Below, piece by piece: positions 3,257 through 32,739 of a stretch of DNA of 64,000 nt. Source of the stretch: an uncultured Planctomycetia bacterium (lineage in GTDB: Bacteria > Omnitrophota > Gorgyraeia > CAYVEO01). The position numbers were made by a program, and so were the translations under genes. Under the pieces are notes generated by a model. It saw nothing but the letters and a program-made list of their open reading frames with translations. It was not told where the DNA came from and did no database searches. Positions within the stretch are counted from its first letter, which is position 1. Each line of letters starts with the position of its first letter. Location of the stretch: contig CAYVEO010000001.1 in the NCBI GenBank assembly GCA_964449965.1, forward strand, positions 15,189 through 79,188, in the 5' to 3' direction.

Positions 3257-4687
3257 CTATTTATTGAAGTATTCTTTAATATTCCGGGCGGATTTTTTAT
3301 TCATGCCTGCTACCCTTGTCAGGCTCTCTATATCAGCATTCTTTATATTCTCAATAGAGCCAAAGTATTTTACCAGATTTACTTTTCTCTCCTTTCCAAT
3401 CCCTGGTATATTATCTAACTCCGACTCCATCGGGATTTTGCTTCTTAAGCCCCTATGGTAGGTTATAGCAAATCTGTGAGCCTCATCCCGTATTCTCATG
3501 ATAAGGTGTAATACCCTGGAATTGGGTGGCAGGATTATAGGGGATGGCTTATCTTTTAAAAATATTGTCTCATGACCTTTGGCTATACCGATAACAGGGA
3601 CAGTTTTTAGATTTAACTTGTTCAACTCTTCACAGGCAGATGAGAGATGCCCCTTACCCCCGTCAATGATTATGAGGTCAGGTAAATCCAGCCCTTCTTC
3701 TGTTGACAGACGAGACGTCTGTCCTACCAATATTCTCTTATACCTCCTGTGCACCACCTCTTTCATCATGGCGTAATCATCTATCCCTTCTACCCATTTT
3801 ATTTTGAATTTCCTGTACCTGCCCCTGTCAGGTTTTCCATTGAGGAATGTCACCATTGACCCTACAGCCTCTTTTCCATATATATCAGAGATATCAAATG
3901 CCTCAATCCTCCTTGGAGCCCTGGGTAAACTTAGCACCGCTTTGAGTTCTTCTGTTTCATCTATTGCCCTGTATCTTTGTGCCCTGGTAACGATAGTAGT
4001 CAATGCCTTTATCTGGTCCCTTATCCGGGCAGCCTTTTCATACTCTAATTGTAAAGCCATGCTGTTCATCTTCTTAAAAAGATATTTCAAGAGTTCCTCT
4101 TTCTTCCCTTCTAAGAACAGGCAGGCGTGTCTAACAATCTCATTATAATCCTCTTCTAAAATCTTGCCAACGCAAGGACCTGCACATAATCCTATGTGAT
4201 AATCCAGACATGCTGTTTTACATATAGACGGACATGCCCTTATAGGGAATACCTTTCTGAGCATCTTAACAGATTTTCTTAAGAGTTTGGCATCTGTCCA
4301 TGGCCCATAGTATTTAGCCCCGTCATCTCTTTTACCTCTTGTTACGAATATCCGAGGGAGGCGTTCGTTGGTTGTAATCTTAATTAGCGGATAACTCTTA
4401 TCGTCCTTTAGCGCTGCATTGTACCGGGGACTATGTTCCTTGATGAGACTTGCTTCAAACAATAGTGCCTCTGCCTCAGAGCCTGTCCTGATTACCTCAA
4501 TGTCACTGATACAAGAAACTAATTTATCTAATTTCGTAGATAGTTTTCGTGAGGCATAAAAGTATGAGGAAACCCTCTTTTTTAAAGACGATGCCTTACC
4601 TATATAGATTATCCCGCCTGTCTTATCTTTCATTAAGTATACGCCGGGTGAGTCGGGTAATTCTTTTATCGTCTCTTTAAGAGCCAT
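3257..4687 (-). CDS. uvrC: excinuclease ABC subunit C (short, 476 aa)
   Basis: GIY-YIG N-terminus (GVYLMKDKTGGIIYIGKASSLKKRVSSYF), UVR helix, RNase H-like endonuclease region and C-terminal HhH (NIPGIGKERKVNLVKYFGSIENI). Confidence 0.85.
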   Translation of the reverse strand: MALKETIKELPDSPGVYLMKDKTGGIIYIGKASSLKKRVSSYFYASRKLSTKLDKLVSCISDIEVIRTGSEAEALLFEASLIKEHSPRYNAALKDDKSYPLIKITTNERLPRIFVTRGKRDDGAKYYGPWTDAKLLRKSVKMLRKVFPIRACPSICKTACLDYHIGLCAGPCVGKILEEDYNEIVRHACLFLEGKKEELLKYLFKKMNSMALQLEYEKAARIRDQIKALTTIVTRAQRYRAIDETEELKAVLSLPRAPRRIEAFDISDIYGKEAVGSMVTFLNGKPDRGRYRKFKIKWVEGIDDYAMMKEVVHRRYKRILVGQTSRLSTEEGLDLPDLIIIDGGKGHLSSACEELNKLNLKTVPVIGIAKGHETIFLKDKPSPIILPPNSRVLHLIMRIRDEAHRFAITYHRGLRSKIPMESELDNIPGIGKERKVNLVKYFGSIENIKNADIESLTRVAGMNKKSARNIKEYFNK

Positions 4688-6267: not shown

Positions 6268-6534
6268 ATGCCAATCCAAAAGGCATCATTTAAGAGTTTA
6301 AGGCAAAGCAAAAAAAGACACCTGAGAAACCTGGCGATAAAGTCCGAATTGAAGACAAAGACAAAAAAATTCATTGCCTCACTTACAGGCAGTGATACCC
6401 AGGCAGCAAAAACAGGGGCGCAAGAATTGATAAAAAGATTAAATAAGGCAAAATCAAAAGGCATAATTCATAAAAAGACAGCATCACGTAAGATATCCCG
6501 CATTATGAAAAAAGTCAGCAAGCTTGCTGCTTGA
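6268..6534 (+). CDS. rpsT: 30S ribosomal protein S20
   Basis: 88 aa, very basic. KKRHLRNLAIKSELKTKTKKFIASL...AKSKGIIHKKTASRKISR is typical S20. The only convincing plus-strand gene in the window. Confidence 0.9.
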   Translation: MPIQKASFKSLRQSKKRHLRNLAIKSELKTKTKKFIASLTGSDTQAAKTGAQELIKRLNKAKSKGIIHKKTASRKISRIMKKVSKLAA

Positions 6535-6579
6535 ATTAAGCCGACCAAGGTCGGCAACTACAATATTTTGAAATTCCTG
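6535..6579. repeat. 45-nt conserved intergenic hairpin element, copy 1 (6-bp stem plus CAAG/CUUG tetraloop, then AACTACAATATTTTGAAATTCCTG)
   Basis: Near-identical to 32643-32687. The only internal differences are a compensatory pair in the stem (GCCGAC/GTCGGC here, GCCGAG/CTCGGC there) and one flanking A/G. Confidence 0.7.
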
Positions 6580-6582: not shown

Positions 6583-7527
6583 TTAAGTTATAGTACAAAG
6601 ATTTATTATTAACCACTCCATTGCGACATTCTCAGGTATCCGGCTTGTTTTAAGGAAAGAGTCTACGCTTAACAGGATTTCCAATTTTCTTTCTATTTCT
6701 CCTTTATGAAGATTCCTTGCCTGTCTTATGAATTCAGGAAATCGTTCTCTCTTCATCCACAATACCCTGCTAATACTATCAACCGAATATCCTTTACTCA
6801 ACATATAAGAAGCTATGTATAGCCTTCTTATATGCCATGCGATTAAACCTATGGTCTCATGCGGCTTTTTCCCTTCTCGCGCCAGTAATAAAGAAATCTT
6901 TAATGCAGCCTGAACATCGTTCTTTCCTATAGCATCTCCCAGGTCAAATATATTATCAATGCCGCCCTCTACTACAACCTTTTCTATATCTTCCGCACTA
7001 ATCTCATCCCTTTCCCCGGTATAACAGGTCAATTTATCTATTTCATGAGAAATGGACTCTAAATCGTTAGGGGCAAATTCCTTCAGTGTCTCTATAGCAG
7101 TAGAAGATATACTCTTTCCCCTTGTTCTCACCTCACGGGATATCCACGAGTCTATTCCCGGTTTATTGAGCGGCTTGCAATCTATTGCCTTTGCATTTCT
7201 TATTGATGCAAACGACTTGTCTTTAAGGAATTCTTTCCCGCCTATCAAAACCATGCACGTGGTCTCTTTTAAAGAAGCACAGTATCCGGCTAACACTTCT
7301 CTGTCCTGTGCTCTTAATTTGTCTGCGTCCTTTACAACCACCATTCTCTTATCCGCCATAAATGGAAGGGTATTAGCGGCATCTAAAATATTAGAAATCC
7401 CGGCATCTTTTCCAAAAAAGATGTTGTAATTAAACTCCTTAAATTCACCCCCTATCAATTCCTTCTTGACTCTCTGAAATGCCTCTTCTTTTAGAAAATC
7501 CTCTTCCCCGCCGATGAGTATTACCAT
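6583..7527 (-). CDS. holA: DNA polymerase III delta subunit
   Basis: 314 aa. N-terminal DNA pol III delta fold (MVVVKDADKL...), downstream of lptE in the conserved lptE-holA arrangement. Confidence 0.7.
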   Translation of the reverse strand: MVILIGGEEDFLKEEAFQRVKKELIGGEFKEFNYNIFFGKDAGISNILDAANTLPFMADKRMVVVKDADKLRAQDREVLAGYCASLKETTCMVLIGGKEFLKDKSFASIRNAKAIDCKPLNKPGIDSWISREVRTRGKSISSTAIETLKEFAPNDLESISHEIDKLTCYTGERDEISAEDIEKVVVEGGIDNIFDLGDAIGKNDVQAALKISLLLAREGKKPHETIGLIAWHIRRLYIASYMLSKGYSVDSISRVLWMKRERFPEFIRQARNLHKGEIERKLEILLSVDSFLKTSRIPENVAMEWLIINLCTIT

Positions 7528-10980: not shown

Positions 10981-12773
10981 ACCTTTGCCACCATAATATC
11001 AGAATTTACCACAGGGAATAACATTGCATTAGCAAATTCTTCCTGGAAATCCGGCCTGCCGGACAATTCAATCTGCTCTGTATTTCCGGCTATCTCTATT
11101 GATTCTCTTATTGCGTCCTTTGAACAGAGTGCCATTTTTGAGCCTACAAATGCAGCATTACCTATAGACCTTACCCTTTCCAGTCCCATAGATGGTATAA
11201 GCCCGAGCCTCAATGCACTCTCTTTCTTTATGTAATTACCGAATGCCCCTGCCAGAAGTATTTCAGAGATAGATTCAGTCTTAATGTCTAACTCTTTCTT
11301 CAATATCTCTATCCCTGCCTGGATGGCACCTTTTGCCACCTGTATCTCTCTAACGTCTTTCTGTGTAATTGCTATATCCTTATGGTCATCTTTGAACAGG
11401 GAGAAACTCGGCACTGCCATCCGTCCGGTTTCATCTATAAGATGTTCTTTTAACATTTCACTTATAGCATCTACTATCCCGCTGCCGCATATTCCCACCG
11501 GGACACCCCCGCCGATAACACCTAACTGGACCTTCCCATCAATGATATGAACGGATTCTATGGCACCCGCTGACGCCCTCATCCCATGTCTTATATGTAT
11601 GCCTTCAAATGCAGGTCCGGCAGCAGTAGATGAGGCAAGAATGCGGTCCTTGTTTCCAAGCATTATCTCACCATTCGTACCAATATCTATAGCCAATCTT
11701 ATATCATCACCCCTGTGAAGTTGGCTTGCAAGCATGACCCCTACAGAGTCAGAGCCGACAAATGCTGATATGTTTGGCAGGACGCGCAGATTCGCATTGG
11801 GATGAATCTCTATGCCTAAGTCATGGGCCTTTATTTTAACCAGTTCCTTTACCACAGGTATATATGGGGCAGAGGCTATAAACTGCGGAGGTATACCAAG
11901 TAAAAGGTGGTGCATAGTCGTATTCCCCACAGCTGTCATAGAATATATCTTGTTACGGCTTATCCCGGCCTGCAGTGCAGCATCTTCTATAATAGTATTT
12001 ATTACCTCTATGACTTTATTATGCAATTTTGAAAGACCATTTTTATCATTGATGGTAAGATTAATCCTGAATATTATATCGTCGCCATATATCACCTGGT
12101 CATTCATCCTGGAAGAAATGGCAGCCTCCCTGCCTGTGTTAAGGTCAACTATAGCACCAACTACAGTCGTCGTCCCTATATCAAAACACATTCCATAACA
12201 TTCGTTCCTGGTATCATGAGGTTCTATATTTATAAGTTCACTATCATCTAAAGTAGCAGTTATTTTAAAATCTGAAGACCTTATTATATGCGGCAATTCC
12301 CGAATGGCTTTGAGATTGGCATATATGGGTTTACCGGTTGATTTAATGACATTTTCCTTCAGGTTTTCAAAATCCGAAACCTGGTAGTTAAGCGCTGGCG
12401 GGGTGAGTTCTAAAAATATCTTCTCAACTGTGGGATTGACTTTGAATTCCTTCTCTTCACCATGCGTCAGTATCTTTTGCACATGGAGGCGCGTTTCATC
12501 AGGGATACGAACCACTAAGTCAGCAGATGACTTCAACATACAGCTCAGCCTGTACCCTTCTAATAATTCATCCTCAGACAGGAACTTCCTATCTGATAGA
12601 CTGATTTCAGTAGAGCCGCTTATCACCTGAACCAAACACTTGCCGCAGGTGCCTGTGCCGCCGCAAGGGGTATCTATGACTATACCGGCAAGCCTCGCAG
12701 CCTCTTTTACAGTCGTGCCGCCTGGCACATGTATCACACGACCATCAGGCTGGAATTTTATCTTAAACGTCAC
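10977..12773 (-). CDS. 2Fe-2S ferredoxin plus ASKHA-ATPase fusion, RACo-like (DUF4445 family)
   Basis: N-terminal plant-type ferredoxin (CGGTGTCGKCLVQV...LSCM). C-terminal actin-fold ATPase motifs DIGTTTVVGAIVDL and DIGTNGEIMLGN...AAGPAFEG. 598 aa. Confidence 0.6.
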   Translation of the reverse strand: MTFKIKFQPDGRVIHVPGGTTVKEAARLAGIVIDTPCGGTGTCGKCLVQVISGSTEISLSDRKFLSEDELLEGYRLSCMLKSSADLVVRIPDETRLHVQKILTHGEEKEFKVNPTVEKIFLELTPPALNYQVSDFENLKENVIKSTGKPIYANLKAIRELPHIIRSSDFKITATLDDSELINIEPHDTRNECYGMCFDIGTTTVVGAIVDLNTGREAAISSRMNDQVIYGDDIIFRINLTINDKNGLSKLHNKVIEVINTIIEDAALQAGISRNKIYSMTAVGNTTMHHLLLGIPPQFIASAPYIPVVKELVKIKAHDLGIEIHPNANLRVLPNISAFVGSDSVGVMLASQLHRGDDIRLAIDIGTNGEIMLGNKDRILASSTAAGPAFEGIHIRHGMRASAGAIESVHIIDGKVQLGVIGGGVPVGICGSGIVDAISEMLKEHLIDETGRMAVPSFSLFKDDHKDIAITQKDVREIQVAKGAIQAGIEILKKELDIKTESISEILLAGAFGNYIKKESALRLGLIPSMGLERVRSIGNAAFVGSKMALCSKDAIRESIEIAGNTEQIELSGRPDFQEEFANAMLFPVVNSDIMVAKV

Positions 12774-16446: not shown

Positions 16447-17193
16447 TTACCCTGCCTTTGCAAGCACTTCATCAGGTATATCAAAGTTTGCATATACATT
16501 CTGGACATCTTCATGCTCTTCCAGAGCCTCAACTAACCCGAGTACCTGGCTCGCTAAACCCTTGTCCACCTTTACAGTGGTCTGGGGCAGCATTGTAATC
16601 TCAGCCATCTGATAGGGGACATTATTCTCATGGAGTTTGGTTTTTATCTTCTCAAGGTCCTTAGGGTCTGTAATAACCTCATAGGTATCACCTTCAGTCT
16701 TCAAATCCTCTGCGCCGCTTTCAAGGACTATGGACATCAATTTATCCTCATCCGCTGATTTCTTATCAATAAGGATAAAACCTTTTTTATGAAAGAGCCA
16801 GCTGACAGAACCCGTTCCTGCCAGGTTTCCCCCCCTCTTGGAAAATATGTTCCTTATCTCTGCCGAGGTCCTGTTCTTATTGTCTGTAGTAACCTCAACC
16901 AGGACAGCCACACCGCCATGGGCATAGCCTTCATATACCACTTCTTCATAAACAACACCAGGCAGTTCCCCTGTCCCTTTCTTGATTGCCCGCTCTATAT
17001 TTTCATTAGGCATATTTGCCTCTCTTGCCTTACTCAATATAGTCCGCAGCGTAGGATTTGAATCAGGACTGCCTCCTCCGTGCTTGGCAGCCACTGTTAT
17101 ATCTTTAGTTAATTTGGAAAATAGTTTACCTTTCTTTGCGTCTGCCAAACCTTTCTTATGCTTTATCCCAGCCCATTTAGAATGTCCTGACAT
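16447..17193 (-). CDS. yebC: YebC/PmpR family DNA-binding regulator
   Basis: MSGHSKWAGIKHKKG...GGGSPDSNPTLR signature. Heads the yebC-ruvC-ruvA-ruvB operon. Its first 7 codons and RBS lie in the 33-bp left att core. Confidence 0.9.
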   Translation of the reverse strand: MSGHSKWAGIKHKKGLADAKKGKLFSKLTKDITVAAKHGGGSPDSNPTLRTILSKAREANMPNENIERAIKKGTGELPGVVYEEVVYEGYAHGGVAVLVEVTTDNKNRTSAEIRNIFSKRGGNLAGTGSVSWLFHKKGFILIDKKSADEDKLMSIVLESGAEDLKTEGDTYEVITDPKDLEKIKTKLHENNVPYQMAEITMLPQTTVKVDKGLASQVLGLVEALEEHEDVQNVYANFDIPDEVLAKAG

Positions 17194-18311
17194 ATCATTG
17201 CTCCTCTATTAGCAATCTTTTCTAACCTGTTATTATTATATATAGTTCCGTGTTCTACCTTTTCATGGACTTTATCTCTGTTACCATCAAGTGTCCAAAA
17301 AGTGTCCACATCCCTGTATAGAAGCTCCACTGCTGAGTGTTTGTGGTTAGGTGAAAGGTGAGAATACCGAAGCGTCATATCCAGGCTCTTATGTCCCAAT
17401 AATTCTTTAACAGTCACTATATCAACCCCTGCCATAACCATATGCGAGGCAAAAGTGTGGCGACAATCGTGTAGATGGAAGTCTTTTATACCAACTCTCT
17501 TTACTGTTAGTCTAAATGCACGTGATAAACTATCCTTATGGATTCTATTGCCCTGTGTGTCACAGAAAACATAAGGACTATCAGTAGGACAGCGTAGCCT
17601 TAACGTCTCAAGTGCCTTTCTTGCTTCGGTATTCATTGGGATATGACGTTGTTCATAATTCTTTGTATCTCTTAAAGTGATTATATCACGAACAAAATCA
17701 ACATCATCCCATCTTAGGTTTAATATCTCGCTCCGTCTCATCCCCGTATTAAACGCCACTACTACAATCGGCTTCAGGGAATCAGAACAGGCATCTAATA
17801 ATGCTTTTATTGCACCTTTCTCTAAAAATCGTATCCGTCTGTTATTTACCTTAAACAACTTTACTTTCTTCACAGGATTCTCATTTGCTTTACCCCATTC
17901 AATCGCTTTTGTAAACATATGTTTCATACAAGCAATCTCACGGTTGACTGTTGCTGCGAGACGGCCATCACTAATACGTCTTGCTTTATAGTCTTCTATC
18001 ATTAGAGGGGTTATTTCATATAGATACCTATTCCCGAACAAAGGAATAAGACGTTTCAAAATACTTTCATCTTTATCAGAGGATTTCTTATTCTGTCGTG
18101 AATATCTCTCTACGTATTCCCTTGCCATGTCCCTAAAAAGTATCTTATGCTGTTTTTGGACATCTAAAAACCTGTTCTCCGCTATGCTGACCTTGATTTT
18201 ATTCAATACTGACTCTGCCTGGCGTCTGCTTGGCCCAACCTTTTGCCTGTGCCGTTTACCACGATACCAGTAATCTATAAAATAATTATCGCCTTTCTTA
18301 CGGACACCCAT
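17163..18311 (-). CDS. int: tyrosine recombinase / phage-type integrase
   Basis: MGVRKKGDNYFIDYWYRGKRHRQ N-terminus. Catalytic HDCRHTFAS...LLGH...LRYSHL with Tyr. The ORF continues about 50 aa past the catalytic Tyr, through the arm repeats and att core, into yebC. Confidence 0.85.
   Translation of the reverse strand: MGVRKKGDNYFIDYWYRGKRHRQKVGPSRRQAESVLNKIKVSIAENRFLDVQKQHKILFRDMAREYVERYSRQNKKSSDKDESILKRLIPLFGNRYLYEITPLMIEDYKARRISDGRLAATVNREIACMKHMFTKAIEWGKANENPVKKVKLFKVNNRRIRFLEKGAIKALLDACSDSLKPIVVVAFNTGMRRSEILNLRWDDVDFVRDIITLRDTKNYEQRHIPMNTEARKALETLRLRCPTDSPYVFCDTQGNRIHKDSLSRAFRLTVKRVGIKDFHLHDCRHTFASHMVMAGVDIVTVKELLGHKSLDMTLRYSHLSPNHKHSAVELLYRDVDTFWTLDGNRDKVHEKVEHGTIYNNNRLEKIANRGAMICQDILNGLG
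17173..17205. repeat. attL core (33-bp direct repeat containing the yebC RBS and start)
   Basis: Identical to 30031-30063. Confidence 0.8.
17291..17308. promoter_or_regulatory. integrase arm-type binding repeats, left (2 x GTGTCCA, 11-bp register)
   Basis: GTGTCCAAAAAGTGTCCA, 86 nt inside the element from the core. The same 18-mer recurs at 29905-29922. Confidence 0.55.
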
Positions 18312-18338
18312 TTTATCCCTCCACCTTAAATTATCATA

Positions 18339-18536
18339 CTAAAAAATCTTGTCAATGTCAAATGTTTTCTTCTTGTTTTCCTCAATCCACCTGTCAACAT
18401 CTTTTAAATCAAATTTTGTCAGTCGCCCCACCTTAACAAAAGGTATTCTCCGCTGGCATACCCACGCATACAAAGTATTCTTGCTTAATCCAGTATACTC
18501 AGCAACTTCATCTATGTTCAACAATCGTCTTTCCAT
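18339..18536 (-). CDS. xis: excisionase / AlpA-family HTH DNA-binding protein
   Basis: 65 aa. IDEVAEYTGLSKNTLYAWVCQRRIPFVKVGRLTKF is typical of the excisionase/AlpA HTH. Immediately upstream of int. Confidence 0.6.
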   Translation of the reverse strand: MERRLLNIDEVAEYTGLSKNTLYAWVCQRRIPFVKVGRLTKFDLKDVDRWIEENKKKTFDIDKIF

Positions 18537-18673
18537 AACCTAAAGGTCCTCTTTAACATTAGTCTCTTGTAAAAATTGCTTATCCCCATTGGCATTAGCC
18601 TCTACAATGCCTTTTCTTGCTGAGTTTCCTTGAATCAGCCTATACTTTTTCAAAGCATCAGGGTTACCCCTGC

Positions 18674-20944
18674 CTAATCTCTTTTGTCTAATGCTTCCTC
18701 TAATGCCTCTTGCTCCGCTTGCTCTTTGGTAAGTCCACCTTCATATTGCATAATCCCTGCCCGTTCATCAAAATCTTCTCGCTTAGTTTCTGATAAATTT
18801 TCAATATTTTTCACCCCACCTCCGTCATCACTATTTCTTTGGTCTTGAGAAATAGTGAGTTGAAGGGTGGGGTAAATAAGTATTCTCCTTTTATCGTTGG
18901 GGTCTGCCTCTTGGGTTATTAGTCCTGCCGTCTCAAGCATCGGCAAAATCTGTTGGCGGAGTTGGTTCGTGTCCAACATCCTGCCATACACCTCGTAATG
19001 TTTTTGAAATATATCCTGACGTGATAGTCCGAGCACTTCCGTTGTCTCAACAAATCCTTCGTTGTAGTTCCCGTTTTTATCTTTCCACGCTTTCAGAATG
19101 ACTTCTTGATAGAGATTGTAGATGTATGGCGGCAGATTAAGTTCCTGACTGACCGAAATGGCATCCCAAATCCTGAATGCTTCCTCAATATCTTCTTCAT
19201 TAGCCGTAATGGTTGAACCGTTCCTTTCTCGCCACCAGAGGTTGAGTAGGGCGAGAGACTTTATGAGGGATATGAGGCGTTTTATGTCTCGCTGGTGTTT
19301 TGGCTTGAGTATCTTATTCTTGCTCAAAAATCGTTCCTCAACCCTCTTGAAATTAGCAATCTTTATCTCACGGATATTTTCAAGTTTTATCGCCCGTATC
19401 CTTTCCTTCAGCAACTTCCTTTCCGGGTTTTCTTCAAGCCAGATACTGTATCTCTCGGCGTCTGATTCTTTCCTCACGCTTTCCGAAACTCCTTCCCGTA
19501 TCTTTTCTTGACTAACCTCTGGACTCAAAAGCAAAAAACGTGTTGCCTCCTGCTCGGCAATCTGCAGTCCTGCAGTGCAGAAAATTACCGAAGGGAAACC
19601 TTTTATAATCACAGTTTTTGTCCGATTTCCGCCTTTTTGATTTTTATCAGTAATTTTGGAACGCATTTCTTTTTCATCGTGCGATAATAGCGAACGCAAT
19701 CGCTCCAAAAGAGCGGTGTGTGGCTGGTCTAAAAAGATAATTATTTTTCTCGATAAATCTACTGTGATGGTGTTTGTATCTTTATCGTATTCCCCTTGTT
19801 CGTGAAAAAATGCAGTAGGGGAACAATTACCCAATTTCATAACATCTTCGTTCGGAAATAGGTTAGAAATCTCCAGAGGGATATAGCTTTTGCCAGTTGA
19901 GGATGGAGCATTGTAACTGATGTTGAACTGAGCATTGTCCGTGTATGCTGAAAGTTCACAGAGAAAGGTTACAATCTTATTCTCCTCATCTGATTTTATG
20001 GTCAGTCCGAGTATCTTCACCAATTCTTGTGAGGAGAGCGGTTTAAATTGCGAGGTATCAATTCTTTCGGGATGCTCTTTCTCATACTTACCAAATAAAT
20101 CATCTGCATTGCCATTGAGCTTTACGAAATAGTCCGTTATATCTCCACCTTTACCGACTTCTTGAGGTAGGGTGGTAATGTATATCTTATTTTCAGTATT
20201 TTCCAGTAATTTTGCCGCCCGTTGGGCACCCTTCTTACCCGTTTCATCATTGTCAAAACAGATGTAAATTTTCCTACCTTTTCCTATCTTTTCGCACCAC
20301 TCTTGTTTAAAGGTCATCGCACCGTGCGTTGAGGTAATTGCAGGTATCCCTTTAGAAAGTAAAGACAACCTATCCAATTCGCCTTCGCAAAGCACGACCT
20401 TATCGGTATCAGATTGGAGTGTGTCCCATCCGTAAATCTGTGCCTCCACACCCTTAGGGTAAGTAATTTTTTTATCCCCTGCATTCGGGTCTTGTCTTAA
20501 CTTGAAAAACCGAAAAGCCCCATAAATATCCTTTATGGGTATAGTAATCCACCACTTGCCGTAAAATTTGCCCCAACCTAACTTGTATTCATCTATAACG
20601 GTGTCTATAATGCCTCTTGCATTCAAATACTGGCGGATGTGAGTTGGGAGTGCTTGATGACAAGTTTCAACTAATTCTGCATCAAACTTGGATTTTGGCT
20701 GTTTGTTCGTGGAATTTCCTAGATTGGGAATGTTGTCCCCGAAGTGCTTGGCGAGGGTAATAAGGTTACCTTTAGCCCCGCACTTCTTGCATTCGTATTG
20801 TCCCGTTTCTGCGTTAAAGTAGAGATGGGCTTCGGTGCCTCTACTGCCATCATCGCACCCATTAAAGAGGCAATGAGTTATTAGTTCGTTCCCTCTTTCA
20901 CGGAATGTAATACCTTCTCGTATCAGATATTCTTTAATTTCCAT
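18674..20944 (-). CDS. phage/plasmid primase: DnaG-type CHC2 zinc finger plus Toprim plus C-terminal P-loop NTPase domain
   Basis: HCLFNGCDDGSRGTEAHLYFNAETGQYECKKCGAKG zinc finger. Toprim VVLCEGELD...ICFDNDETGKKG. Walker A-like NAPSSTGKSY. 756 aa. Confidence 0.7.
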   Translation of the reverse strand: MEIKEYLIREGITFRERGNELITHCLFNGCDDGSRGTEAHLYFNAETGQYECKKCGAKGNLITLAKHFGDNIPNLGNSTNKQPKSKFDAELVETCHQALPTHIRQYLNARGIIDTVIDEYKLGWGKFYGKWWITIPIKDIYGAFRFFKLRQDPNAGDKKITYPKGVEAQIYGWDTLQSDTDKVVLCEGELDRLSLLSKGIPAITSTHGAMTFKQEWCEKIGKGRKIYICFDNDETGKKGAQRAAKLLENTENKIYITTLPQEVGKGGDITDYFVKLNGNADDLFGKYEKEHPERIDTSQFKPLSSQELVKILGLTIKSDEENKIVTFLCELSAYTDNAQFNISYNAPSSTGKSYIPLEISNLFPNEDVMKLGNCSPTAFFHEQGEYDKDTNTITVDLSRKIIIFLDQPHTALLERLRSLLSHDEKEMRSKITDKNQKGGNRTKTVIIKGFPSVIFCTAGLQIAEQEATRFLLLSPEVSQEKIREGVSESVRKESDAERYSIWLEENPERKLLKERIRAIKLENIREIKIANFKRVEERFLSKNKILKPKHQRDIKRLISLIKSLALLNLWWRERNGSTITANEEDIEEAFRIWDAISVSQELNLPPYIYNLYQEVILKAWKDKNGNYNEGFVETTEVLGLSRQDIFQKHYEVYGRMLDTNQLRQQILPMLETAGLITQEADPNDKRRILIYPTLQLTISQDQRNSDDGGGVKNIENLSETKREDFDERAGIMQYEGGLTKEQAEQEALEEALDKRD

Positions 20945-20974
20945 CGCAGCCTCCCAAACTATCTTTTGGAAATC

Positions 20975-21229
20975 CTACTCCGTTTGAGAGCGGGGGGGGC
21001 AGGGCGACGCACCTTCTCCCTGTTTAATCCCCTCCGCTCCCCCACGTGGTATTCTCCCTGTAAGCAAACTAATCATCTCGGCTTTGTGCCTGTTGGTGTA
21101 TCTACGCCAGTTATTGTGGTCCCGAAATGAAGGAGAAATCAATCCTCTTTTTTCAAAATGAATCACTGTCTTGGCAGAAATGCCCATTTCTGCTCCTAAT
21201 TTTCCGGCCGTGTAGAATAAACGTGGCAT
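20975..21229 (-). CDS. MerR-family HTH protein (small); C-terminal tail contains a C8 homopolymer
   Basis: LGAEMGISAKTVIHFEKRGLISPSFRDHNNWRRYT is a MerR-type HTH. The tail ...ASPCPPRSQTE is encoded across G8/C8 at 20992-20999. Confidence 0.45.
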   Translation of the reverse strand: MPRLFYTAGKLGAEMGISAKTVIHFEKRGLISPSFRDHNNWRRYTNRHKAEMISLLTGRIPRGGAEGIKQGEGASPCPPRSQTE

Positions 21230-21314
21230 ATTAACCTCCCAATATAGATAAGGATTATTGTAAAATCATAGGGAGATAGCGGACAAAACGGTAATTTTGA
21301 GGTTTTAACAGTGG

Positions 21315-21632
21315 TTAGACTTTGTTACGCTGGTAGGATTTTTGGCAGGCGTCACAACAAAATTGTCTTCTTTTATCTACTACTTTGAATTTTGGATGTG
21401 GTATCATTGAAAAACAGGCAGGGTTCTCACAAGGTCTACTGGTCTTATAGACAAGATCCAGGGCATCCTCATAGGGTATTGAGCGGGTTTTTGCTACCTT
21501 ATCGGCTGCTTTGTCTATAAGACTGTCTATCTTATAACCTCTTTTCAAATTATCCTCACAGACAATTTTTGCATTAGCCGGTAATTTCTTAATTCTTTTG
21601 CCATCTGTAGGTCTGAAATTCACTTCATACAC
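21315..21632 (-). CDS. hypothetical protein with C-terminal zinc ribbon (CENPAC...CCDAC)
   Basis: 105 aa. Cys pattern CX4C...CCX2C. No recognisable family. Confidence 0.35.
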   Translation of the reverse strand: MYEVNFRPTDGKRIKKLPANAKIVCEDNLKRGYKIDSLIDKAADKVAKTRSIPYEDALDLVYKTSRPCENPACFSMIPHPKFKVVDKRRQFCCDACQKSYQRNKV

Positions 21633-21637
21633 ATTAG

Positions 21638-22099
21638 TTAAAATTTTATAAATGCCTGCCTTTTCTTGCCAATGATTCTTCTTGTATATTCATACTGCGG
21701 TTTTTCTTCTTTCTGTTCCGTAAGAGGTAATGCTTCTGGGATGGTCTTTTCCTTAAATTGTAAAAGCACATCTTTAGGGACCTTGTTTTCTGGGCTAACC
21801 GTGACATCTTCTTGTAAATCAGGAATCTGGTATCTATGGTATGAATCCCATATTAGTCCATCATCGCCAGTATTTTCCCGCCAGTGAAAAACCTCATTCC
21901 ATTGGGTAACCCTCGGGCAGTTTACCTTACAGATTTTTTTATCGTATTTGGGACAACTATTACAAGGGATATTTTTTAGATACTGGTCAAGTTTCTGGCA
22001 GGATGTTCTTCTGCATTTGGTAGTGCCTTTGTATTGGCAAACAAGAGGGCAATTTTTGACTTCCTTTAGTGGCTTGAGTTTATCTTGTGCGTCTTTCAT
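21638..22099 (-). CDS. hypothetical Cys-rich protein (8 Cys in the first 61 aa; two probable Zn sites)
   Basis: CPLVC, CRRTSC, CNSC, CKVNC arrangement. Acidic, proline-rich C-terminal half. Confidence 0.35.
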   Translation of the reverse strand: MKDAQDKLKPLKEVKNCPLVCQYKGTTKCRRTSCQKLDQYLKNIPCNSCPKYDKKICKVNCPRVTQWNEVFHWRENTGDDGLIWDSYHRYQIPDLQEDVTVSPENKVPKDVLLQFKEKTIPEALPLTEQKEEKPQYEYTRRIIGKKRQAFIKF

Positions 22100-22161
22100 T
22101 GTGCGTCCTGTAATTAAAAATCACTGGTTAAGCTTCAACTAATGCTTTCGTCTTTAAGAGG

Positions 22162-22815
22162 TCACTTATTTGGAAAATCAGGTTTAGTCTCATGTTCACT
22201 ATTTCCACCATCGTTTTCACTAAACCACTCGCCCTCCGTCTTACCGGTCAGCCTCTTTATCTCCTTCCTGTTGCGGCGCTCTAGCGCCTTGAAAATGATG
22301 TCATCCAGTTGCCGTTCCTCTTCAGGTGTCATATACTGGGTCCAATTGTCATCCTTAACCCCCATCTCCTCCGGTGGCTTCTTTAAGAACCCGAGCTCCA
22401 TAAACTTCTCTATCATGTTAACCTCTATCTGCCATGCCAGGCGGTAATCCTCTTTAGCCATTGCTTTCTGCCTAAGATTACGAGCCTCGTGGAGGAACGT
22501 GCCGATTATCCTCTTGTAGTCAAGAACCGTAAGCATGTTCATGTAATTTCTTTCTATTGCCTCAAGGTCATACCTAATTGTCCTAACCGAGACATGCAGA
22601 CGGTTCGCAATCTCTTCCTGGCTCATTTCACCTTGCCGGTTGAAATAATCCACACAGACCTGCCTCATCTGTGGCGTCAAGTCTTCATAAGGGAGGACTC
22701 CGTCCTCCAAGTTCTTCAGGATTATCAAAGCGTTGTCTTCAATTATATCCATTTCGGCAAGTTTTTTGCCTGTTAGTTTAATCGCCAAGTTATCTGCTTT
22801 CAGTAAATTAGACAT
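22162..22815 (-). CDS. HTH protein with a sigma-70 region-4-like helix-turn-helix (element regulator, or small-terminase-like)
   Basis: LTPQMRQVCVDYFNRQGEMSQEEIANRLHVSVRTIRYDLEAI resembles a region 4.2 HTH, but it sits at residues 45-90 of a 217-aa protein. Confidence 0.45.
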   Translation of the reverse strand: MSNLLKADNLAIKLTGKKLAEMDIIEDNALIILKNLEDGVLPYEDLTPQMRQVCVDYFNRQGEMSQEEIANRLHVSVRTIRYDLEAIERNYMNMLTVLDYKRIIGTFLHEARNLRQKAMAKEDYRLAWQIEVNMIEKFMELGFLKKPPEEMGVKDDNWTQYMTPEEERQLDDIIFKALERRNRKEIKRLTGKTEGEWFSENDGGNSEHETKPDFPNK

Positions 22816-22893
22816 CGTTTCTGTGCGTTGCCTATTTTTGCCTATAAACGAACACGTGTTCGCCCTCTACCGACTCGTCTTTTCCTTACTTGC

Positions 22894-23136
22894 TCATCCA
22901 CCATAATTACCCCACATAAGTTCTTTCTTTCTCGGCTCAAACCTTATCCCGTTGTCGCCCTTGAATGGCTTCTTATGGTCGTGCACTTCACCAAAAATAT
23001 CAAGCGGTATCTGGTCTGGGAACGCCTTGCAAGAATGCCATGTGCTGTCGTCAAAATGTTCGCACTTCATGCATTGATTTTCTCCGAAAGTATCAAGGAT
23101 ATATTCCTTCGCATAATTCTTGTCTTTTTCATTCAT
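22894..23136 (-). CDS. hypothetical small protein (CxxC...HxC)
   Basis: 80 aa, same strand as its neighbours. The 129-aa ORF on the other strand is the less likely of the two. Confidence 0.3.
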   Translation of the reverse strand: MNEKDKNYAKEYILDTFGENQCMKCEHFDDSTWHSCKAFPDQIPLDIFGEVHDHKKPFKGDNGIRFEPRKKELMWGNYGG

Positions 23137-23253
23137 TTTTTTATCACCTTTCCATATGAACTATATCAGGGTCATCATCCCTTTCATAATCCCAACCCGG
23201 CGGGGCAAAATCCCTGAAAATTTTCAGTTTTCTAAGTCAATATTTCCCCTATC

Positions 23254-26200
23254 TTAATTTACCAACCCAACCACAGGCTTTAATATAAATCTCACCATTG
23301 ACCTTAAGTATTCATGTCTTGCGATAAAGTCTGCAATAGGTGGGCTCATCCTGTAATAGAACGCCACTAATCTCTTCCCAATCGGGTTAGTCAATAGATG
23401 TGTATCCCTGAATCGGCTCAATGTGACTACATCACTTGCCATTGGTGTTCCATAAGCAGCAGTTGCTATAAAACAGCCTCCGCCCCCACCACCTCCACCA
23501 CCAGACGAACCTTGAGGTGTAGCACTTGACTGAGCACCAGTGGAATAGTTCGGCACTTCATCATAGGCAAAGATTGTGTAGTAACAGGCTGTCCCATTGG
23601 TTAATCCTGTATCTGTCTTGCTCGTCCCTGTCCCTGAATATACCTCTGTCCCGTCTGTTACACTTGCAGGATACCCGCCTGTCTTTCTGATTACCTTTAC
23701 CCCTGCAAAATCTGTATCAGCCGGGTTCGTCCATGTTAGGCTTACCTGTCCATCTCCTGCTGTTGCACTCAATCCTGATGGTGCTGACGGCGCTGCAGTA
23801 TCCTCTGAACCTATTGCAAAGTCACTTAAGTGTCCTACTTTTGCCTTTACCTGCTTATTGGTCGTGTCTACTTCTGTATCAGAAATCTTCTCCCACTTGC
23901 CTGTTGTTGTGTTATACCACCAGAGTTTGAGGTCTTTCTCTGGTATATTCGTCCCATCTACTATACCATTATTATCTGTATCATCGTATGGAATGGTTAC
24001 TGTCACTGATTTCTCCAACGTTGGGTTACCTTCTAATTCTATCTTCCTGAATTTGTCAAGTGATGAATTTGCACCCTCAGTTGTGTTTTGTGGATTCGCT
24101 GGAAGGGCTGTTACTGTAAGTGTAGCATCCTGGGTTAAAGTTCCATATGGTATCTCTACTGATGTGTAGTCCTCCATACTTGATTCTGTAGTCTCATCTT
24201 TGTCTATCTTCTGCTTCTTCTCCCGATTACCACTGTTATCCACACCATCATTTACATCTGGATTCGTCTGAGTTACTGTTACTGTGATGATTTCAGAGTT
24301 GACTGTATTGTCGCTTGTATCTTTCCCTACTGCACGAAGTTGATAGTCACCTTCAGTTAATCCTGTCACATTCCACGTTGTGCTAAAAAATGAATTCGGC
24401 GGTGGGAACATCTCGCTTCCTATGTCTGTCCAGTCTGTGGTTACACCTTTATATTGAAACTTCACGCTCTTGGTAAGATTCCCCGGGGCTGTATTGGCAT
24501 GTAATGTTACATCTGTCCCCCATATACTATCTCCATTCTTCGGCACTGAAATCCAGACCTTTAGGTTAGACGGACTACTTACTGTAAGTGCCACAGAATC
24601 TGTATCTGTTAATCCGTTACTATCCACTACCATTACTGTGGGTGAGTATGAACCCGGCTTGTCATAGACATGGGTTGTTGTTCCTGTTGTTGATGCCCAG
24701 TCATATTCTCCATCTCCTTCATAATCCCAGATATATGCTATGTAACTGCCACTTCCTCCTATTGCTGACCCGGTTAAAGTGACTATTTCTCCTACTGTTA
24801 CTGAAGAAGGACTGCAATTCGCATCGGCAACGAGTGGATTTGTATTGGTTGGATTGGATACAGATATAGTAACACTTGCAGTCCCACTTAATCCATCATT
24901 ATCCGTTACTCTTAGAGTAGCAGTATAACTACCTCCCTGCCCATAGATGTAGCTGACGCTCCCAGAACTTGTTGAGACAAAATCATAAGTGCCATTTCCA
25001 TCAAAATCCATCTCATACTGTTTGATAGTCCCATCTGTATCTGTGCCACTGTAGGTAAATGTTACTGTAAGCGGTGTAGTGCCACTTGTAGATGACGCTG
25101 AGATAGAAGCAGTTGGAGATTTTTTATCTACAGGTGGTGAACTTACAGTTATGGTAACTGAGGCAGTTGCTGTTAGACTATCATTATCGGTAACCCTGAA
25201 ATTTGCTGTCCATGTCCCCGCAGACGAATAGGTTTTAACAGTATTTCCACCTGTATTTGATGACCAATCATAGGTTCCATTCCCATCAAAGTCCCATTCG
25301 TATTTGGTAATACTTCCATCATCTGTCGCACTCCCTGTAAAACTTACTGCGAGTGGTGCAGTTCCACTTGTAGGTGTAGCACTGGCTGTGGCAGTTGGTG
25401 GGTTACTCATTGGCTTGGCACTTACTTGAGATGAATAACTACTCTCATTTGAAGCGAAGTCAACTGCTGTAACCACGTAATAATACGTAGTTCCATTTGT
25501 TAAACCACTATCATTATATTGACTCGCAGTAACTGTGCTCGTATTGATTTTGTTATATCCACTACCACTTGCAGAACTCCGATAAACATTATAACCTGAT
25601 AAATCAGATTCTGTATTATTATTCCAGTCAAGACTTACTGTAGTATTTCCAGCACTGGATGTTAATCCAGTAGGCACTAATGGTGGTATGCTATCCTGGG
25701 GAGTAACACTAACTTCTGAAGAGGCAGTGCCTTCATTTTTTTGAATATCTACAGCCTTTACCACATAATAATAAGTGACACCGTTAGTGAGCCCTGTATC
25801 CTGGTATTGGCTATAAACCTGGGTTGCTGTATTGATTTGACTATACGTTCCGCCACTTAACAGGCTTCGGTATATATTATACCCGGCGAGGTCTGCCTCA
25901 GTATTATCATTCCAGTCAAGACTTACAGTCTCGTTCCCTGAAGTGGCAGTAAGCCCGGTTGGCGAGTTTGGAGGTAAATCCACAGTAGCAGAAGTTGTTA
26001 CGACTTCCAAATAAGGCACTAAATTCCCCCTATAATCAATGGGGACACTGTTATGGTATTCAGTTGAGGCAAAACCCGTAACTAACCACCATGATGAGGT
26101 CTTACTAATGCCATTTGGAACCAATGCCAACGTGAGATAGTTGGAGTTGTCTTTTGGTCCGTTGACTGTGAAACTTCCGGGAGAGAACTCCCACTTATAC

Positions 26201-27147: not shown

Positions 27148-27183
27148 TATGAATAGGTCAATACCTGACCTACAACCACCATT

Positions 27184-28449: not shown

Positions 28450-28635
28450 TTTAGCCCGTCCTCATCACCTCGCCAAAGGATTTTATATCCTGGAATTAAC
28501 CAGGACAGATGAAAACGGGCTATGCCCGCTTCACGCTACCTTTGGCGAGGTTTTTGTGTTTAAAGCGTGTGTCAGTTCTACTATTTTTCTAAAATTTTAC
28601 ATTTCCATTATCACCTTATTTAACTTACCCTTATA

Positions 28636-29157: not shown

Positions 29158-29185
29158 TTGCGGTTCACCACTCTCTAAAATAAAA

Positions 29186-29211
29186 CAGAGGGTTGAACGA
29201 GCAACCCTCTG
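29186..29211 (-). terminator. Rho-independent terminator downstream of the toxin-antitoxin-like operon
   Basis: Perfect 10-bp stem CAGAGGGTTG/CAACCCTCTG with a 6-nt loop, then TTTTATTTTAG on the minus strand. Confidence 0.6.
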
Positions 29212-32625: not shown

Positions 32626-32642
32626 GTCATTTCACTCCTTAA

Positions 32643-32687
32643 ATTAGGCCGAGCAAGCTCGGCAACTACAATATTTTGAAATTCCTG
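32643..32687. repeat. 45-nt conserved intergenic hairpin element, copy 2 (in the nadA leader, downstream of panD)
   Basis: ATTAgGCCGAgCAAGcTCGGCAACTACAATATTTTGAAATTCCTG. The stem pair is flipped relative to copy 1. Confidence 0.7.
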
Positions 32688-32714
32688 TACTCTGAATTAG
32701 ATTCTCGTTATCTT

Positions 32715-32739
32715 GACAGGCGGGACGCCTGTCCTACTT
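32715..32739. repeat. GC-rich post-stop hairpin element, copy A (GACAGGCGGGACGCCTGTCCTACTT); the panD stop codon lies inside it
   Basis: On the minus strand TAGGACAGGCG-TCC-CGCCTGTC gives an 8-bp stem and 3-nt loop. Matches 51173-51197 at 24 of 25 positions. Confidence 0.65.

What the first reader, a model, noticed from the sequence alone, without database searches (positions are those of the whole stretch)
6535..6579. Two copies of a 45-nt intergenic element: CUUG-tetraloop hairpin with a compensatory stem mutation plus an invariant 24-nt tail
Copy 1 (6535-6579, between convergent rpsT and holA) and copy 2 (32643-32687, between panD and nadA) are identical apart from a flanking A/G and a flipped base pair in the 6-bp stem (GCCGAC/GTCGGC against GCCGAG/CTCGGC). 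A covarying pair preserves a hairpin whose loop is CUUG on the minus strand. The neighbouring genes are transcribed from that strand in both places. The pair is followed by an invariant AACTACAATATTTTGAAATTCCTG. This indicates selection on RNA or DNA secondary structure plus a sequence-specific partner. The hairpin lacks a U-tract, so it is not a canonical intrinsic terminator. It could be a REP-like element, a processing or stability element, or a protein-binding site. Copy 2 sits within about 20 nt of the nadA RBS.
Basis: seen in the sequence. Interest (0 to 1): 0.65.

Follow-up and report, generated by a model that had tools for sequence, protein, structure and literature searches.

The report
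GTAG-tagged REP-like mobile hairpin repeat
The two 45-nt copies are real, and they belong to a small family of REP-type "GTAG + hairpin" selfish repeats that have recently landed in tight gene junctions of one Candidatus Omnitrophota lineage, which makes them a new example of a known kind of element rather than a new regulatory RNA.

Summary
Copy 1 lies at 6535-6579 and copy 2 at 32643-32687. They share a 6-bp GC-rich hairpin and an identical 24-nt tail, and they differ by one flipped stem pair. None is expected by chance.

On the minus strand the unit reads GTAG-TT-GCCGAS-CTTG-STCGGC-YTAAT. This is the architecture of GTAG-tagged REP elements: a perfect palindrome, a 4-nt loop, and 2 nt between the tag and the stem.

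The same 44-nt unit sits at four different loci in this species-level lineage. Close relatives have empty sites at three loci:
- rpsT/holA is empty in a relative at 92% nucleotide identity.
- panD/nadA has stop and start 1 nt apart in five relatives.
- ptsN/cofD is filled in a strain at 95% identity but empty in the window's own genome.

Another Omnitrophota MAG carries the hairpin with a second compensatory pair but without the tail. A neighbouring hairpin family (D4) is a bona fide REP that flanks RAYT transposase genes in other genomes.

The invariant tail is explained by recent copying and needs no trans-acting partner. No terminator, promoter or Rfam match was found. The mobilising enzyme and the genome-wide copy number could not be determined.

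Verdict: a new member of a known kind, of modest interest.

The parts
6534..6579 (-). Copy 1 of the element. It fills the 48-nt gap between the convergent rpsT stop (6532-6534) and holA stop (6583-6585).
   Evidence: The same junction is empty in L010 and L008.
6540..6555 (-). Copy 1 hairpin GCCGAC/CTTG/GTCGGC (minus-strand reading). This is the derived C-G closing pair.
6556..6561 (-). GTAGTT on the minus strand: the GTAG tag (6558-6561) plus a 2-nt spacer.
6562..6579 (-). AT-rich tail of copy 1 (AATATTTTGAAATTCCTG on the + strand).
32642..32700 (-). Copy 2 of the element including its longer right end (...GAAATTCCTGTACTCTGAATTAG). It lies in the panD-nadA spacer, and the hairpin foot is 8 nt from the nadA Shine-Dalgarno sequence.
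   Evidence: The spacer is absent in L011-L015.
32648..32663 (-). Copy 2 hairpin GCCGAG/CTTG/CTCGGC, the majority variant.
32664..32669 (-). GTAGTT tag plus spacer of copy 2 (CTAC at 32666-32669 on the + strand).
32695..32707 (.). 13-nt remnant (AATTAGATTCTCG) of the long-hairpin 'H3' repeat. The full H3 repeat abuts the element in L007.
32715..32737 (-). Neighbouring D4 REP, GTAG-GACAGGCG-TCC-CGCCTGTC. It is part of the same inserted spacer, and its TAG is the panD stop codon.

Best explanation
The element is a member of the GTAG-tagged REP (repetitive extragenic palindrome) superfamily. On the window's minus strand it consists of a short AT-rich leader, then GTAG, a 2-nt spacer, a perfect 6-bp GC-rich palindrome with a 4-nt loop, and YTAATT.

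**Shown**
- It is a dispersed repeat, copied nearly unchanged to at least four gene junctions in one species-level Candidatus Omnitrophota lineage.
- It is absent from the same junctions in close relatives, and at one locus in the window's own genome.
- It keeps its stem through compensatory changes.
- It lies among other GTAG hairpins. One of these (D4) flanks RAYT genes in other genomes.

**Inferred**
- It is a non-autonomous element moved as folded single-stranded DNA by a RAYT or IS200-like HUH tyrosine transposase. That enzyme would read the hairpin plus the GTAG 'guide'.
- The GTAG-bearing strand is the presumed lagging-strand template, as for IS200/IS605-type elements.
- The identity of the tail reflects recent copying of a 44-57-nt unit, not selection by a partner.
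- Any RNA-level effect is a by-product. Possible effects are a stable G(CUUG)C hairpin at the 3' end of the holA message and in the nadA 5' leader.

The 0.65 confidence is for 'REP-type mobile hairpin repeat'. Confidence in the RAYT step alone is about 0.45.
For: **Architecture**
- GTAG + 2 nt + perfect palindrome + 4-nt loop is seen in every copy.
- This matches the group-3 REP(Mb) layout described in PMC8266576.
- It also matches the GTAG-1/-2 layout in PMC3733652, which has a dinucleotide between tag and stem and a conserved motif on the far side.

**Dispersal (four loci)**
- rpsT/holA: window, L001, L002/L006.
- panD/nadA: window, L004.
- Downstream of groEL: L005.
- ptsN/cofD: L007.

**Empty sites**
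- L010 (92% nt identity) and L008 at rpsT/holA.
- L011-L015 at panD/nadA, where stop and ATG are 1 nt apart.
- L135, from the window's own assembly, and L136-L138 at ptsN/cofD.

**Stem covariation**
- G-C to C-G in copy 1.
- G-C to A-T in L131, from another Omnitrophota MAG.
- 100% of cells are paired.
- REP sub-families with complementary stem changes are typical.

**Context**
- Other GTAG hairpins occupy the same kind of junction (L009, L131, L042).
- D4 flanks a Y1_Tnp/RAYT ORF as an inverted pair in L103, and lies beside a RAYT-like ORF in L018.
- All five GTAG hairpins in the window have GTAG on the minus strand, which is the G-rich, gene-rich strand.
Against: - No RAYT or IS200-like gene lies in the window, and no cognate transposase was found for this hairpin.
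- Copy number looks low:
  - 2 copies in about 72 kb of this genome.
  - Only 3 contigs in the one JGI metagenome that has the element.
  - No exact tail in 185,579 GTDB species genomes.
  - Classical REPs number over 100 per genome (PMC2817692).
- Copies are singletons, not inverted pairs (BIME/REPIN).
- A 22-35-nt conserved AT-rich tail moving together with the hairpin is not part of the standard REP definition.
- Insertion sites are not clean. Several small elements are juxtaposed, so a single transposition event cannot be reconstructed.
- Compensatory changes in a DNA palindrome can also arise without selection, by templated (quasi-palindrome) mutation or by conversion from a sub-family variant.
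Confidence: 0.65

Rival explanations
1. It is a cis-acting RNA element kept by selection. The candidates are a 3'-end stabiliser or weak terminator for holA/rpsT, and a 5'-leader stabiliser or translation modulator for nadA. In this reading the tail is the binding site of a protein or sRNA.
For: - In all loci the tail-to-hairpin orientation matches the direction of transcription of at least one flanking gene.
- The majority variant forms G(CUUG)C. By general knowledge, not tested here, this is a stable tetraloop context.
- The hairpin lies 8 nt from the nadA SD sequence. In L005 it is about 10 nt from the SD of the downstream gene and sits downstream of a TTGACA-17-TATATT promoter-like site.
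- REPs are known to act as RNA elements (PMC3733652).
Against: - The same junctions work without it in close relatives, and in the window's own genome at ptsN/cofD.
- There is no U-tract and no terminator call.
- There is no Rfam match, even at E<=10.
- The tail is not conserved with the hairpin in L131.
- Copy 1 flips the tetraloop closing pair.
- The orientation bias equals the gene and replication strand bias of the region.
- In L007 the likely true start codon is about 75 nt away.
Confidence: 0.15
2. It is a classical MITE moved by a DDE transposase, with short AT-rich terminal repeats (TTAATTA) and an AATTA-type target-site duplication.
For: - Every copy starts with AATTAR.
- An (A)ATTA[AG] recurs to the right of the tail: copy 1 ATTAAG...ATTAAG, copy 2 AATTAG...AATTAG, L002 AATTAA...AATTAA.
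- The H3 long-hairpin repeat next to it has true inverted termini.
Against: - The filled-versus-empty comparison at ptsN/cofD (L007 versus L135) shows no AATTA in the empty site. The AATTA ends therefore belong to the insert and are not a duplication.
- There are no terminal inverted repeats beyond the self-complementary TTAATTAA.
- The distance to the right-hand AATTA varies between copies.
Confidence: 0.1
3. The tail is a DNA-binding site for a nucleoid or regulatory protein (IHF-like, as in the E. coli RIP/BIME-1 elements), and it travels with a REP.
For: - The tail contains CAA-N4-TTG (CAATATTTTG), a partial match to the IHF core WATCAANNNNTTR. This rests on my reading of the sequence and on general knowledge.
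- Some REP families are regularly associated with other conserved tracts (PMC3733652).
Against: - The WAT part of the IHF core is not matched.
- There is no dyad symmetry.
- The tail is absent next to the homologous hairpin in L131.
- There is no evidence of conservation beyond what recent copying would give.
Confidence: 0.07
4. It is a chance local duplication or gene conversion between two spacers, with no family behind it.
For: There are only two copies in the 64-kb window.
Against: - Further copies exist at two other loci in a sister strain.
- The hairpin has a homologue in another Omnitrophota MAG.
- Zero matches are expected by chance.
Confidence: 0.02

Closest known systems
Group-3 GTAG REPs such as REP(Mb) of Marinomonas sp. 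MWYL1, and the GTAG-1/GTAG-2 families of Di Nocera et al. 2013 (PMC8266576, PMC3733652)
   Same: - Short perfect palindrome with a 4-nt loop.
- GTAG tetranucleotide separated from the stem by 2 unpaired bases.
- Conserved short motif on the far side of the stem.
- Sub-variants with complementary stem changes.
- Location between convergent or co-directional ORFs, within 20 nt of ORF ends.
- Coexistence with other REP families.
   Different: - The stem is 6 bp rather than 5.
- A conserved 22-35-nt AT-rich tail is copied along with the hairpin.
- Copies are singletons.
- Copy number is apparently low.
- No cognate RAYT has been identified.
- The host phylum (Candidatus Omnitrophota) is not among the eight phyla that paper reports.
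REP(Sm)/SMAG-type REPs, represented here by the neighbouring D4 hairpin
   Same: - D4 has GTAG directly abutting an 8-bp perfect stem with a 3-nt loop, the layout described for S. maltophilia REP(Sm).
- D4 flanks RAYT genes as inverted pairs (L103).
- D4 shares the inserted panD-nadA spacer with copy 2, in the same orientation.
   Different: - D4 has a different stem, loop and spacing from the element under study.
- D4 is spread over many phyla, whereas the element is confined to one lineage, with a hairpin homologue in one other MAG.
IS200/IS605-family ends and their miniature derivatives (PATEs)
   Same: - Subterminal hairpin read on one strand, with a 5' tetranucleotide 'guide'.
- No inverted termini.
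- No target duplication.
- Strand bias consistent with the lagging-strand template.
   Different: - There is only one hairpin instead of distinct left-end and right-end hairpins.
- No TnpA/TnpB partner with these ends was found. The exact tail is absent from the GTDB and IMG/VR scans.
BIMEs of E. coli and intragenic palindromic elements of Rickettsia (RPE)
   Same: - Mosaic junctions are built from several small palindromic modules (L131, L002, L007, copy 2).
- A D4-like unit lies in frame inside uvrC, as reported for REPs in uvr genes.
   Different: - There is no regular alternating Y/Z arrangement.
- The element itself has not been seen inside a gene.

Membership tests
GTAG-tagged REP superfamily | Short (about 20-40 nt) extragenic palindrome forming a GC-rich stem-loop (stems of 6-13 bp, short loop) | tested here: met
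   - 6-bp perfect stem (5 of 6 pairs G-C) and a 4-nt loop, at about -10 kcal/mol on either strand.
- Both copies are intergenic.
GTAG-tagged REP superfamily | Conserved unpaired GTAG (or GTRG) tetranucleotide at one end, 0-2 nt from the stem | tested here: met
   - GTAG-TT precedes the stem on the minus strand in all 5 distinct copies and in the L131 homologue.
- About 0.08 such GTAG-N2-stem6-CTTG-stem6 sites are expected by chance in the 0.97 Mb searched. This is my own estimate.
GTAG-tagged REP superfamily | Dispersed at many loci; classically more than 100 copies per genome | tested here: inconclusive
   - Dispersed to 4 loci in the lineage.
- Only 2 copies in about 72 kb of this genome.
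- Only 3 contigs in the one positive JGI metagenome.
- The full genome was not available to the tools.
GTAG-tagged REP superfamily | Sub-families differing by complementary stem changes | tested here: met
   2 of 6 pairs have double-sided changes and 100% of cells are paired. 38 of 500 shuffles reach this in a sample of only 4 distinct rows.
GTAG-tagged REP superfamily | Dynamic presence or absence between close relatives | tested here: met
   Empty sites at rpsT/holA (L010, L008), panD/nadA (L011-L015) and ptsN/cofD (L135-L138).
GTAG-tagged REP superfamily | Cognate RAYT gene flanked by inverted copies of the same REP (REPtron) | not testable with these tools
   - No Y1_Tnp-like ORF was found in the window or the related loci.
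- The rest of the genome could not be scanned.
- The feature is met only for the neighbouring D4 family, in other genomes (L103, L018).
GTAG-tagged REP superfamily | Frequent arrangement as inverted dimers (BIME/REPIN) | tested here: not met
   - All copies are singletons. Neighbouring hairpins belong to other families and have the same orientation.
- Families dominated by singletons do exist (PMC3733652), so this feature is not obligatory.
Intrinsic (Rho-independent) terminator | GC-rich hairpin immediately followed by a U-tract | tested here: not met
   - The hairpin is followed by UUAAUU on the minus strand and AACUAC on the + strand.
- It is not called by the terminator scan at either copy.
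MITE (DDE-type) | Terminal inverted repeats plus a target-site duplication | tested here: not met
   - There are no TIRs beyond the AT-rich TTAATTA.
- AATTA is absent from the empty ptsN/cofD site, so it is not a duplication.
Any Rfam 15 RNA family | Score at or above the gathering threshold | tested here: not met
   - The only gathering-level hit in the window is a tRNA-Ser.
- In E-value mode only chance-level hits appear (E>2).

The most novel reading that the evidence does not exclude
The 44-57-nt unit (GTAG hairpin plus the AT-rich tail with TTAATTA ends) may be a distinct composite miniature element. In this reading it is co-mobilised with the H3 long-hairpin repeat, because the same junction is found at two unrelated loci. 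Its tail would carry a function of its own, for example the cleavage or target-recognition segment for an undescribed HUH enzyme, or a protein or sRNA site that rewires the leaders of genes such as nadA. That would make it a REP variant that delivers a regulatory module in a phylum where none has been described.
Probability: 0.1. Interest if true: 0.55.

Novelty: new member of a known kind. Interest (0 to 1): 0.3.

Why it matters
- The finding shows that very compact Candidatus Omnitrophota genomes, with stop and start codons 1 nt apart, are being colonised by several families of small hairpin repeats. The insertions split overlapping or abutting genes, re-create stop codons and ribosome-binding sites, and change protein C-termini. 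holA is 314 aa here against 325 aa in the empty-site relative.
- For annotation, it warns against reading near-identical intergenic motifs as regulatory RNAs.
- The three filled-versus-empty site pairs at 92-95% identity offer a natural system for studying recent REP movement. The mechanism of REP movement is still unsettled.
- The side observation on D4 is probably the more interesting lead. It is a 23-nt REP shared almost exactly across at least ten phyla, together with a RAYT clade 60-93% identical across several phyla.

Tried and rejected
1. **Exact 22-mer tail scan, genomes.** The scan of 185,579 GTDB species genomes gave 0 hits. The species genome is therefore not in that collection, and no genome-wide count was possible.
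2. **Tail scan, IMG/VR.** A related tail 22-mer (CGGCAACTACAATATTTTGAAA) gave 0 hits, so nothing points to a phage or att origin.
3. **JGI metagenome scan.** Only 3 contigs were found, all from one sample.
4. **Rfam.** Gathering mode and E-value mode both gave nothing.
5. **Promoter and terminator scans.** The hairpin was not called. One weak + strand promoter-like site at copy 2 points antisense into panD and is not shared by other copies.
6. **Motifs checked by eye.** Sigma-54, integron attC, dif/Xer and CRISPR-repeat readings of the tail do not fit their consensus sequences.
7. **attL/attR idea.** The two direct copies, 26 kb apart, might have been attL/attR of an island. This is rejected. 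The island between them (17173-30063) has its own 33-bp repeats, and the copies differ in the stem.
8. **TSD idea (AATTA).** Rejected by the L007 versus L135 comparison.
9. **Tail-like 19-mer inside uvrC (3800-3818).** It encodes the conserved YRKFKIK motif and is judged coincidental.
10. **Logan contig ends.** Logan contigs L003 and L004 both end inside the element. This is suggestive of a repeat-induced assembly break but not interpretable, because the two known copies share only 29 nt, below k-1.
11. **Look-up of a window-edge protein.** The look-up made to extend the contig leftwards found nothing.
12. **Homologues of the D4-associated RAYT.** None of the top 120 was labelled Omnitrophota.

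Full report
**1. Observation**

Both copies are present exactly as described.

- Copy 1 has the hairpin GCCGAC-CAAG-GTCGGC at 6540-6555 and the tail AACTACAATATTTTGAAATTCCTG at 6556-6579.
- Copy 2 has the hairpin GCCGAG-CAAG-CTCGGC at 32648-32663 and the same tail at 32664-32687.
- The 24-mer occurs twice in the window even when 3 mismatches are allowed. None occurred in 100 shuffles.
- The repeat finder returns the pair as a 53-nt family at 91% identity.

- rpsT (6268-6534) is on the + strand and holA (6583-7527) on the minus strand. Copy 1 therefore fills almost the whole 48-nt gap between two convergent stop codons.
- Copy 2 lies in a 108-nt spacer between the panD stop (32734) and the nadA start (32625), both on the minus strand. 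The hairpin foot is 8 nt from the nadA Shine-Dalgarno sequence.
- The hairpin is in the minimum-free-energy fold of either strand, at about -10 kcal/mol. A single-sided change would cost about 3 kcal/mol.

**2. Source organism and further copies**

- The rpsT, nadA and obgE proteins are exact matches to proteins that NCBI names as from Candidatus Omnitrophica/Omnitrophota MAGs. They lie on a 110,651-bp contig.
- An exact-protein look-up recovered the same locus from GCA_016193245.1 (L001). It also recovered the locus from a sister strain (L002, ENA) that is 95.4% identical in DNA.
- A scan of JGI metagenomes with the 22-mer tail found three contigs from one sample.
  - L006 is the rpsT locus of the sister strain.
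  - L005 is a new locus, downstream of groEL.
  - L007 is another new locus, between ptsN and a cofD/yvcK-like gene.
- Aligned, all copies share AATTAR-GCCGAS-CAAG-STCGGC-AACTACAATATTTTGAAATTCC (44 nt). Some continue with [A/TG]TACAATWAATTA, giving about 57 nt.
- Every copy except window copy 1 has the GAG/CTC stem, including the orthologous rpsT copy of the sister strain. Copy 1 therefore carries the derived double change.

**3. The sites are empty in close relatives**

- *rpsT/holA.* In L010 (holA 93% identical in protein, 92% nt) and L008 (62%) the two genes abut or overlap, and there is no element. In L009 the same junction carries a different hairpin, GTAGA-GGTCGGA-TTTG-TCCGACC, in the opposite orientation.
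- *panD/nadA.* In five relatives whose nadA falls in the same 90%-identity cluster (81-84% nt overall), the panD stop and the nadA ATG are 1 nt apart. The whole 108-nt spacer of the window is therefore inserted DNA.
- *ptsN/cofD.* The sister strain (L007) has a 77-nt long-hairpin repeat (H3) followed directly by the element. The window's own genome (L135, contig JACPSO010000128.1 of GCA_016193245.1) reads ...TTGAGATTC|AAAGTGCA... with neither.
  - This filled/empty pair also shows that the AATTA ends belong to the insert. They are not a target duplication.

**4. What the hairpin is**

- Read on the minus strand, each copy is ...AAAATATT-GTAG-TT-GCCGAS-CTTG-STCGGC-YTAATT.
- A GTAG tetranucleotide next to a short perfect palindrome defines the GTAG-tagged REP superfamily (PMC3733652).
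  - That paper notes stems of 6-13 bp and short loops.
  - It describes families (GTAG-1/-2) with a dinucleotide between tag and stem and a conserved motif on the other side.
  - It reports sub-families with complementary stem changes.
  - It reports GTAG termini that supply TAG stop codons, and REPs inside uvr genes.
- The REP(Mb) of Marinomonas is described as a small perfect palindrome with a 4-nt loop, separated by 2 bases from GTAG (PMC8266576). That is the same layout as here.
- Among 24 GC-rich perfect hairpins in the window, four have CTAC just downstream on the + strand: the two copies and two units of a second family, D4. None has the opposite orientation.

**5. The neighbouring D4 family is a bona fide REP**

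- D4 reads GTAG-GACAGGCG-TCC-CGCCTGTC. It occurs at 32715-32737, where its TAG is the panD stop. It also occurs at 51173-51195, and in frame inside uvrC at 3705-3727.
More than 118 stretches were returned, from Acidobacteriota, Verrucomicrobiota, Cyanobacteria, Nitrospirota, Atribacterota, Planctomycetota, Omnitrophota and others.
- In L103 an inverted D4 pair flanks an ORF with HVH and Y motifs that matches Pfam Y1_Tnp (E = 1.8e-8).
- L018 has a homologous ORF next to a D4 unit.
- Homologues of this ORF are 60-93% identical across several phyla, and JGI calls them 'REP element-mobilizing transposase RayT'.
- REP/RAYT systems therefore exist in genomes that carry the hairpins found next to the element.

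**6. A homologue of the hairpin elsewhere**

- Among the 0.97 Mb fetched, one site in another Omnitrophota MAG (JAHJUB01, L131:1715-1736) reads GTAGTT-GCCAAG-CTTG-CTTGGC.
  - It has the same tag, spacer and loop.
  - One further stem pair has changed on both sides, G-C to A-T.
  - It lies in a cluster of three different GTAG hairpins.
- The flanking sequence there is unrelated to the tail.
- On the six-sequence alignment, 6 of 6 pairs are always paired and 2 of 6 have double-sided changes. Only 38 of 500 shuffles reach this, but the sample has just four distinct rows.

**7. What the invariant tail does and does not show**

- The two strains that share the rpsT copy differ at 4.6% of positions. 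That predicts about 2 differences in 44 nt and about 1 in the 22-nt tail.
- The observed pattern is 2 differences, both in one stem pair, and none in the tail. The probability of zero differences in the tail is 0.36.
- The stem result is non-random: P is about 0.002 for a compensatory pair given two substitutions. The tail result is not.
- Identity between paralogous copies is expected if they are recent copies, which the empty sites indicate.
- I therefore see no need for a sequence-specific partner. One is not excluded.
- The compensatory change can reflect selection for the hairpin, whether for mobilisation or as RNA. It can also arise by templated mutation within a palindrome, or by conversion from a sub-family variant. 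These alternatives cannot be separated here.

**8. Other readings tested**

- Rfam finds only a tRNA-Ser in the window, and only chance-level hits around both copies.
- The terminator and promoter scans do not call the hairpin.
- The two copies are not att sites. The 12.9-kb integrase island between them has its own 33-bp perfect repeats.
- There are no inverted termini and no target duplication, so this is not a classical MITE.

**9. Mechanism**

*Shown.* The element is a dispersed unit of 44-57 nt that is polymorphic by insertion or deletion. It has REP architecture and a maintained stem, and it lies in a genomic setting rich in other GTAG hairpins.

*Inferred.*
- It is mobilised as single-stranded DNA by a RAYT or IS200-like HUH transposase that uses the hairpin and the GTAG as a guide (model in PMC8266576).
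- All GTAG hairpins in the window have the tag on the minus strand. That strand carries nearly all genes and is G-rich (GC skew of the + strand is -0.18). It presumably has the sequence of the lagging-strand template.
- This fits the known strand preference of IS200/IS605-type enzymes, which I take from general knowledge. It is confounded with the direction of transcription.

*Not shown.* The enzyme, the copy number, and any RNA-level effect.

The juxtaposition of element and H3 end recurs at two unrelated loci: L007, and the 13-nt remnant at 32695-32707. This suggests composite copying or a shared target.

**10. Verdict**

It is a new member of a known kind, in a phylum where such repeats have, to my knowledge, not been described. 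Its atypical features are the co-copied tail, singleton copies and apparently low copy number. Interest is modest.

Noticed in passing
window 3705-3727, 32715-32737, 51173-51195; L134:710; L016-L133: A second hairpin family (D4: GTAG + 8-bp stem GACAGGCG + 3-nt loop).
- It flanks a RAYT (Y1_Tnp) gene as an inverted pair in L103 and sits beside a RAYT-like ORF in L018.
- The RAYT clade is 60-93% identical across several phyla.

A REP/RAYT pair this conserved across phyla looks horizontally spread. No paper in the library contains the sequence string.
   Followed up: partly
window 3705-3727 (inside uvrC, 3257-4687, minus strand): A D4-like GTAG hairpin lies in frame inside uvrC, where it encodes VGQTSRLS. 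The L103 RAYT ORF has the equivalent VGQASRLS from its 5' D4 unit. REPs inside uvr genes are reported in PMC3733652. Whether this is an insertion relative to uvrC of relatives was not checked.
   Followed up: partly
window 17173-30063: A 12.9-kb integrated element bounded by a 33-bp perfect direct repeat (17173-17205 and 30031-30063) that contains the RBS and first codons of yebC.
- It encodes a tyrosine integrase (17163-18311), a Toprim primase-like protein, a MerR/excisionase-like protein, an N6/N4 DNA methylase, an ORF6N protein and a 1297-aa PKD-repeat protein.
- It is absent from relatives L012 and L014, where the hexapeptide-repeat gene is followed directly by yebC.
   Followed up: partly
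L007:275-351; L011:9560-9640; L012:5659-5740 and 10987-11069; L013:3590-3660; remnant at window 32695-32707: A 65-85-nt long-hairpin, MITE-like repeat (H3: AGATTCTTCGC...GCGAAGAATCT), always with AATT on one side.
- It occurs in several relatives at different gene junctions.
- It abuts the element in L007.
- A 13-nt piece of its end abuts copy 2 in the window.
   Followed up: partly
window 42918-42958: A 41-nt perfect palindrome (GGGACGGTTCTATTTTTTGC-T-GCAAAAAATAGAACCGTCCC) inserted at the pgk/tpiA junction. It is absent from the relative L011, where the two genes overlap. It has no GTAG tag.
   Followed up: partly
L009:930-980; L131:1650-1740; L042:4930-4980: Other GTAG hairpin families occur in relatives and in another Omnitrophota MAG.
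- GGTCGGA-TTTR-TCCGACC occurs at the rpsT/holA junction of L009 and again in L131.
- GGGCTCGA-TTTA-TCGAGCCC and GCAAAGC/GCAGAGC pairs also occur.
- They form BIME-like clusters.
   Followed up: partly
window 6583-6600 versus L010:1017-1047 and L002:953-1030: The insertion changed the holA C-terminus.
- holA is 314 aa in the window.
- It is 325 aa in L010, overlapping rpsT.
- It is a called 339-aa ORF in L002 that reads through the element.
- L002 also has an extra hairpin, CGCCC-TTCG-GGGCG, beside the element.
   Followed up: partly
window 49126-51148: Two adjacent paralogous genes (334 and 343 aa) with about 74-84% identical stretches at a spacing of about 1021-1024 nt (repeat families D1, D5, D6, D17). 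This is a tandem gene duplication. Its function was not examined.
   Followed up: no
L003 end (1933) and L004 end (3423): Two Logan contigs from SRR4343428 both stop inside the element, within 2 nt of each other. This may mean further copies or strain variants in that sample, but it could not be interpreted.
   Followed up: no
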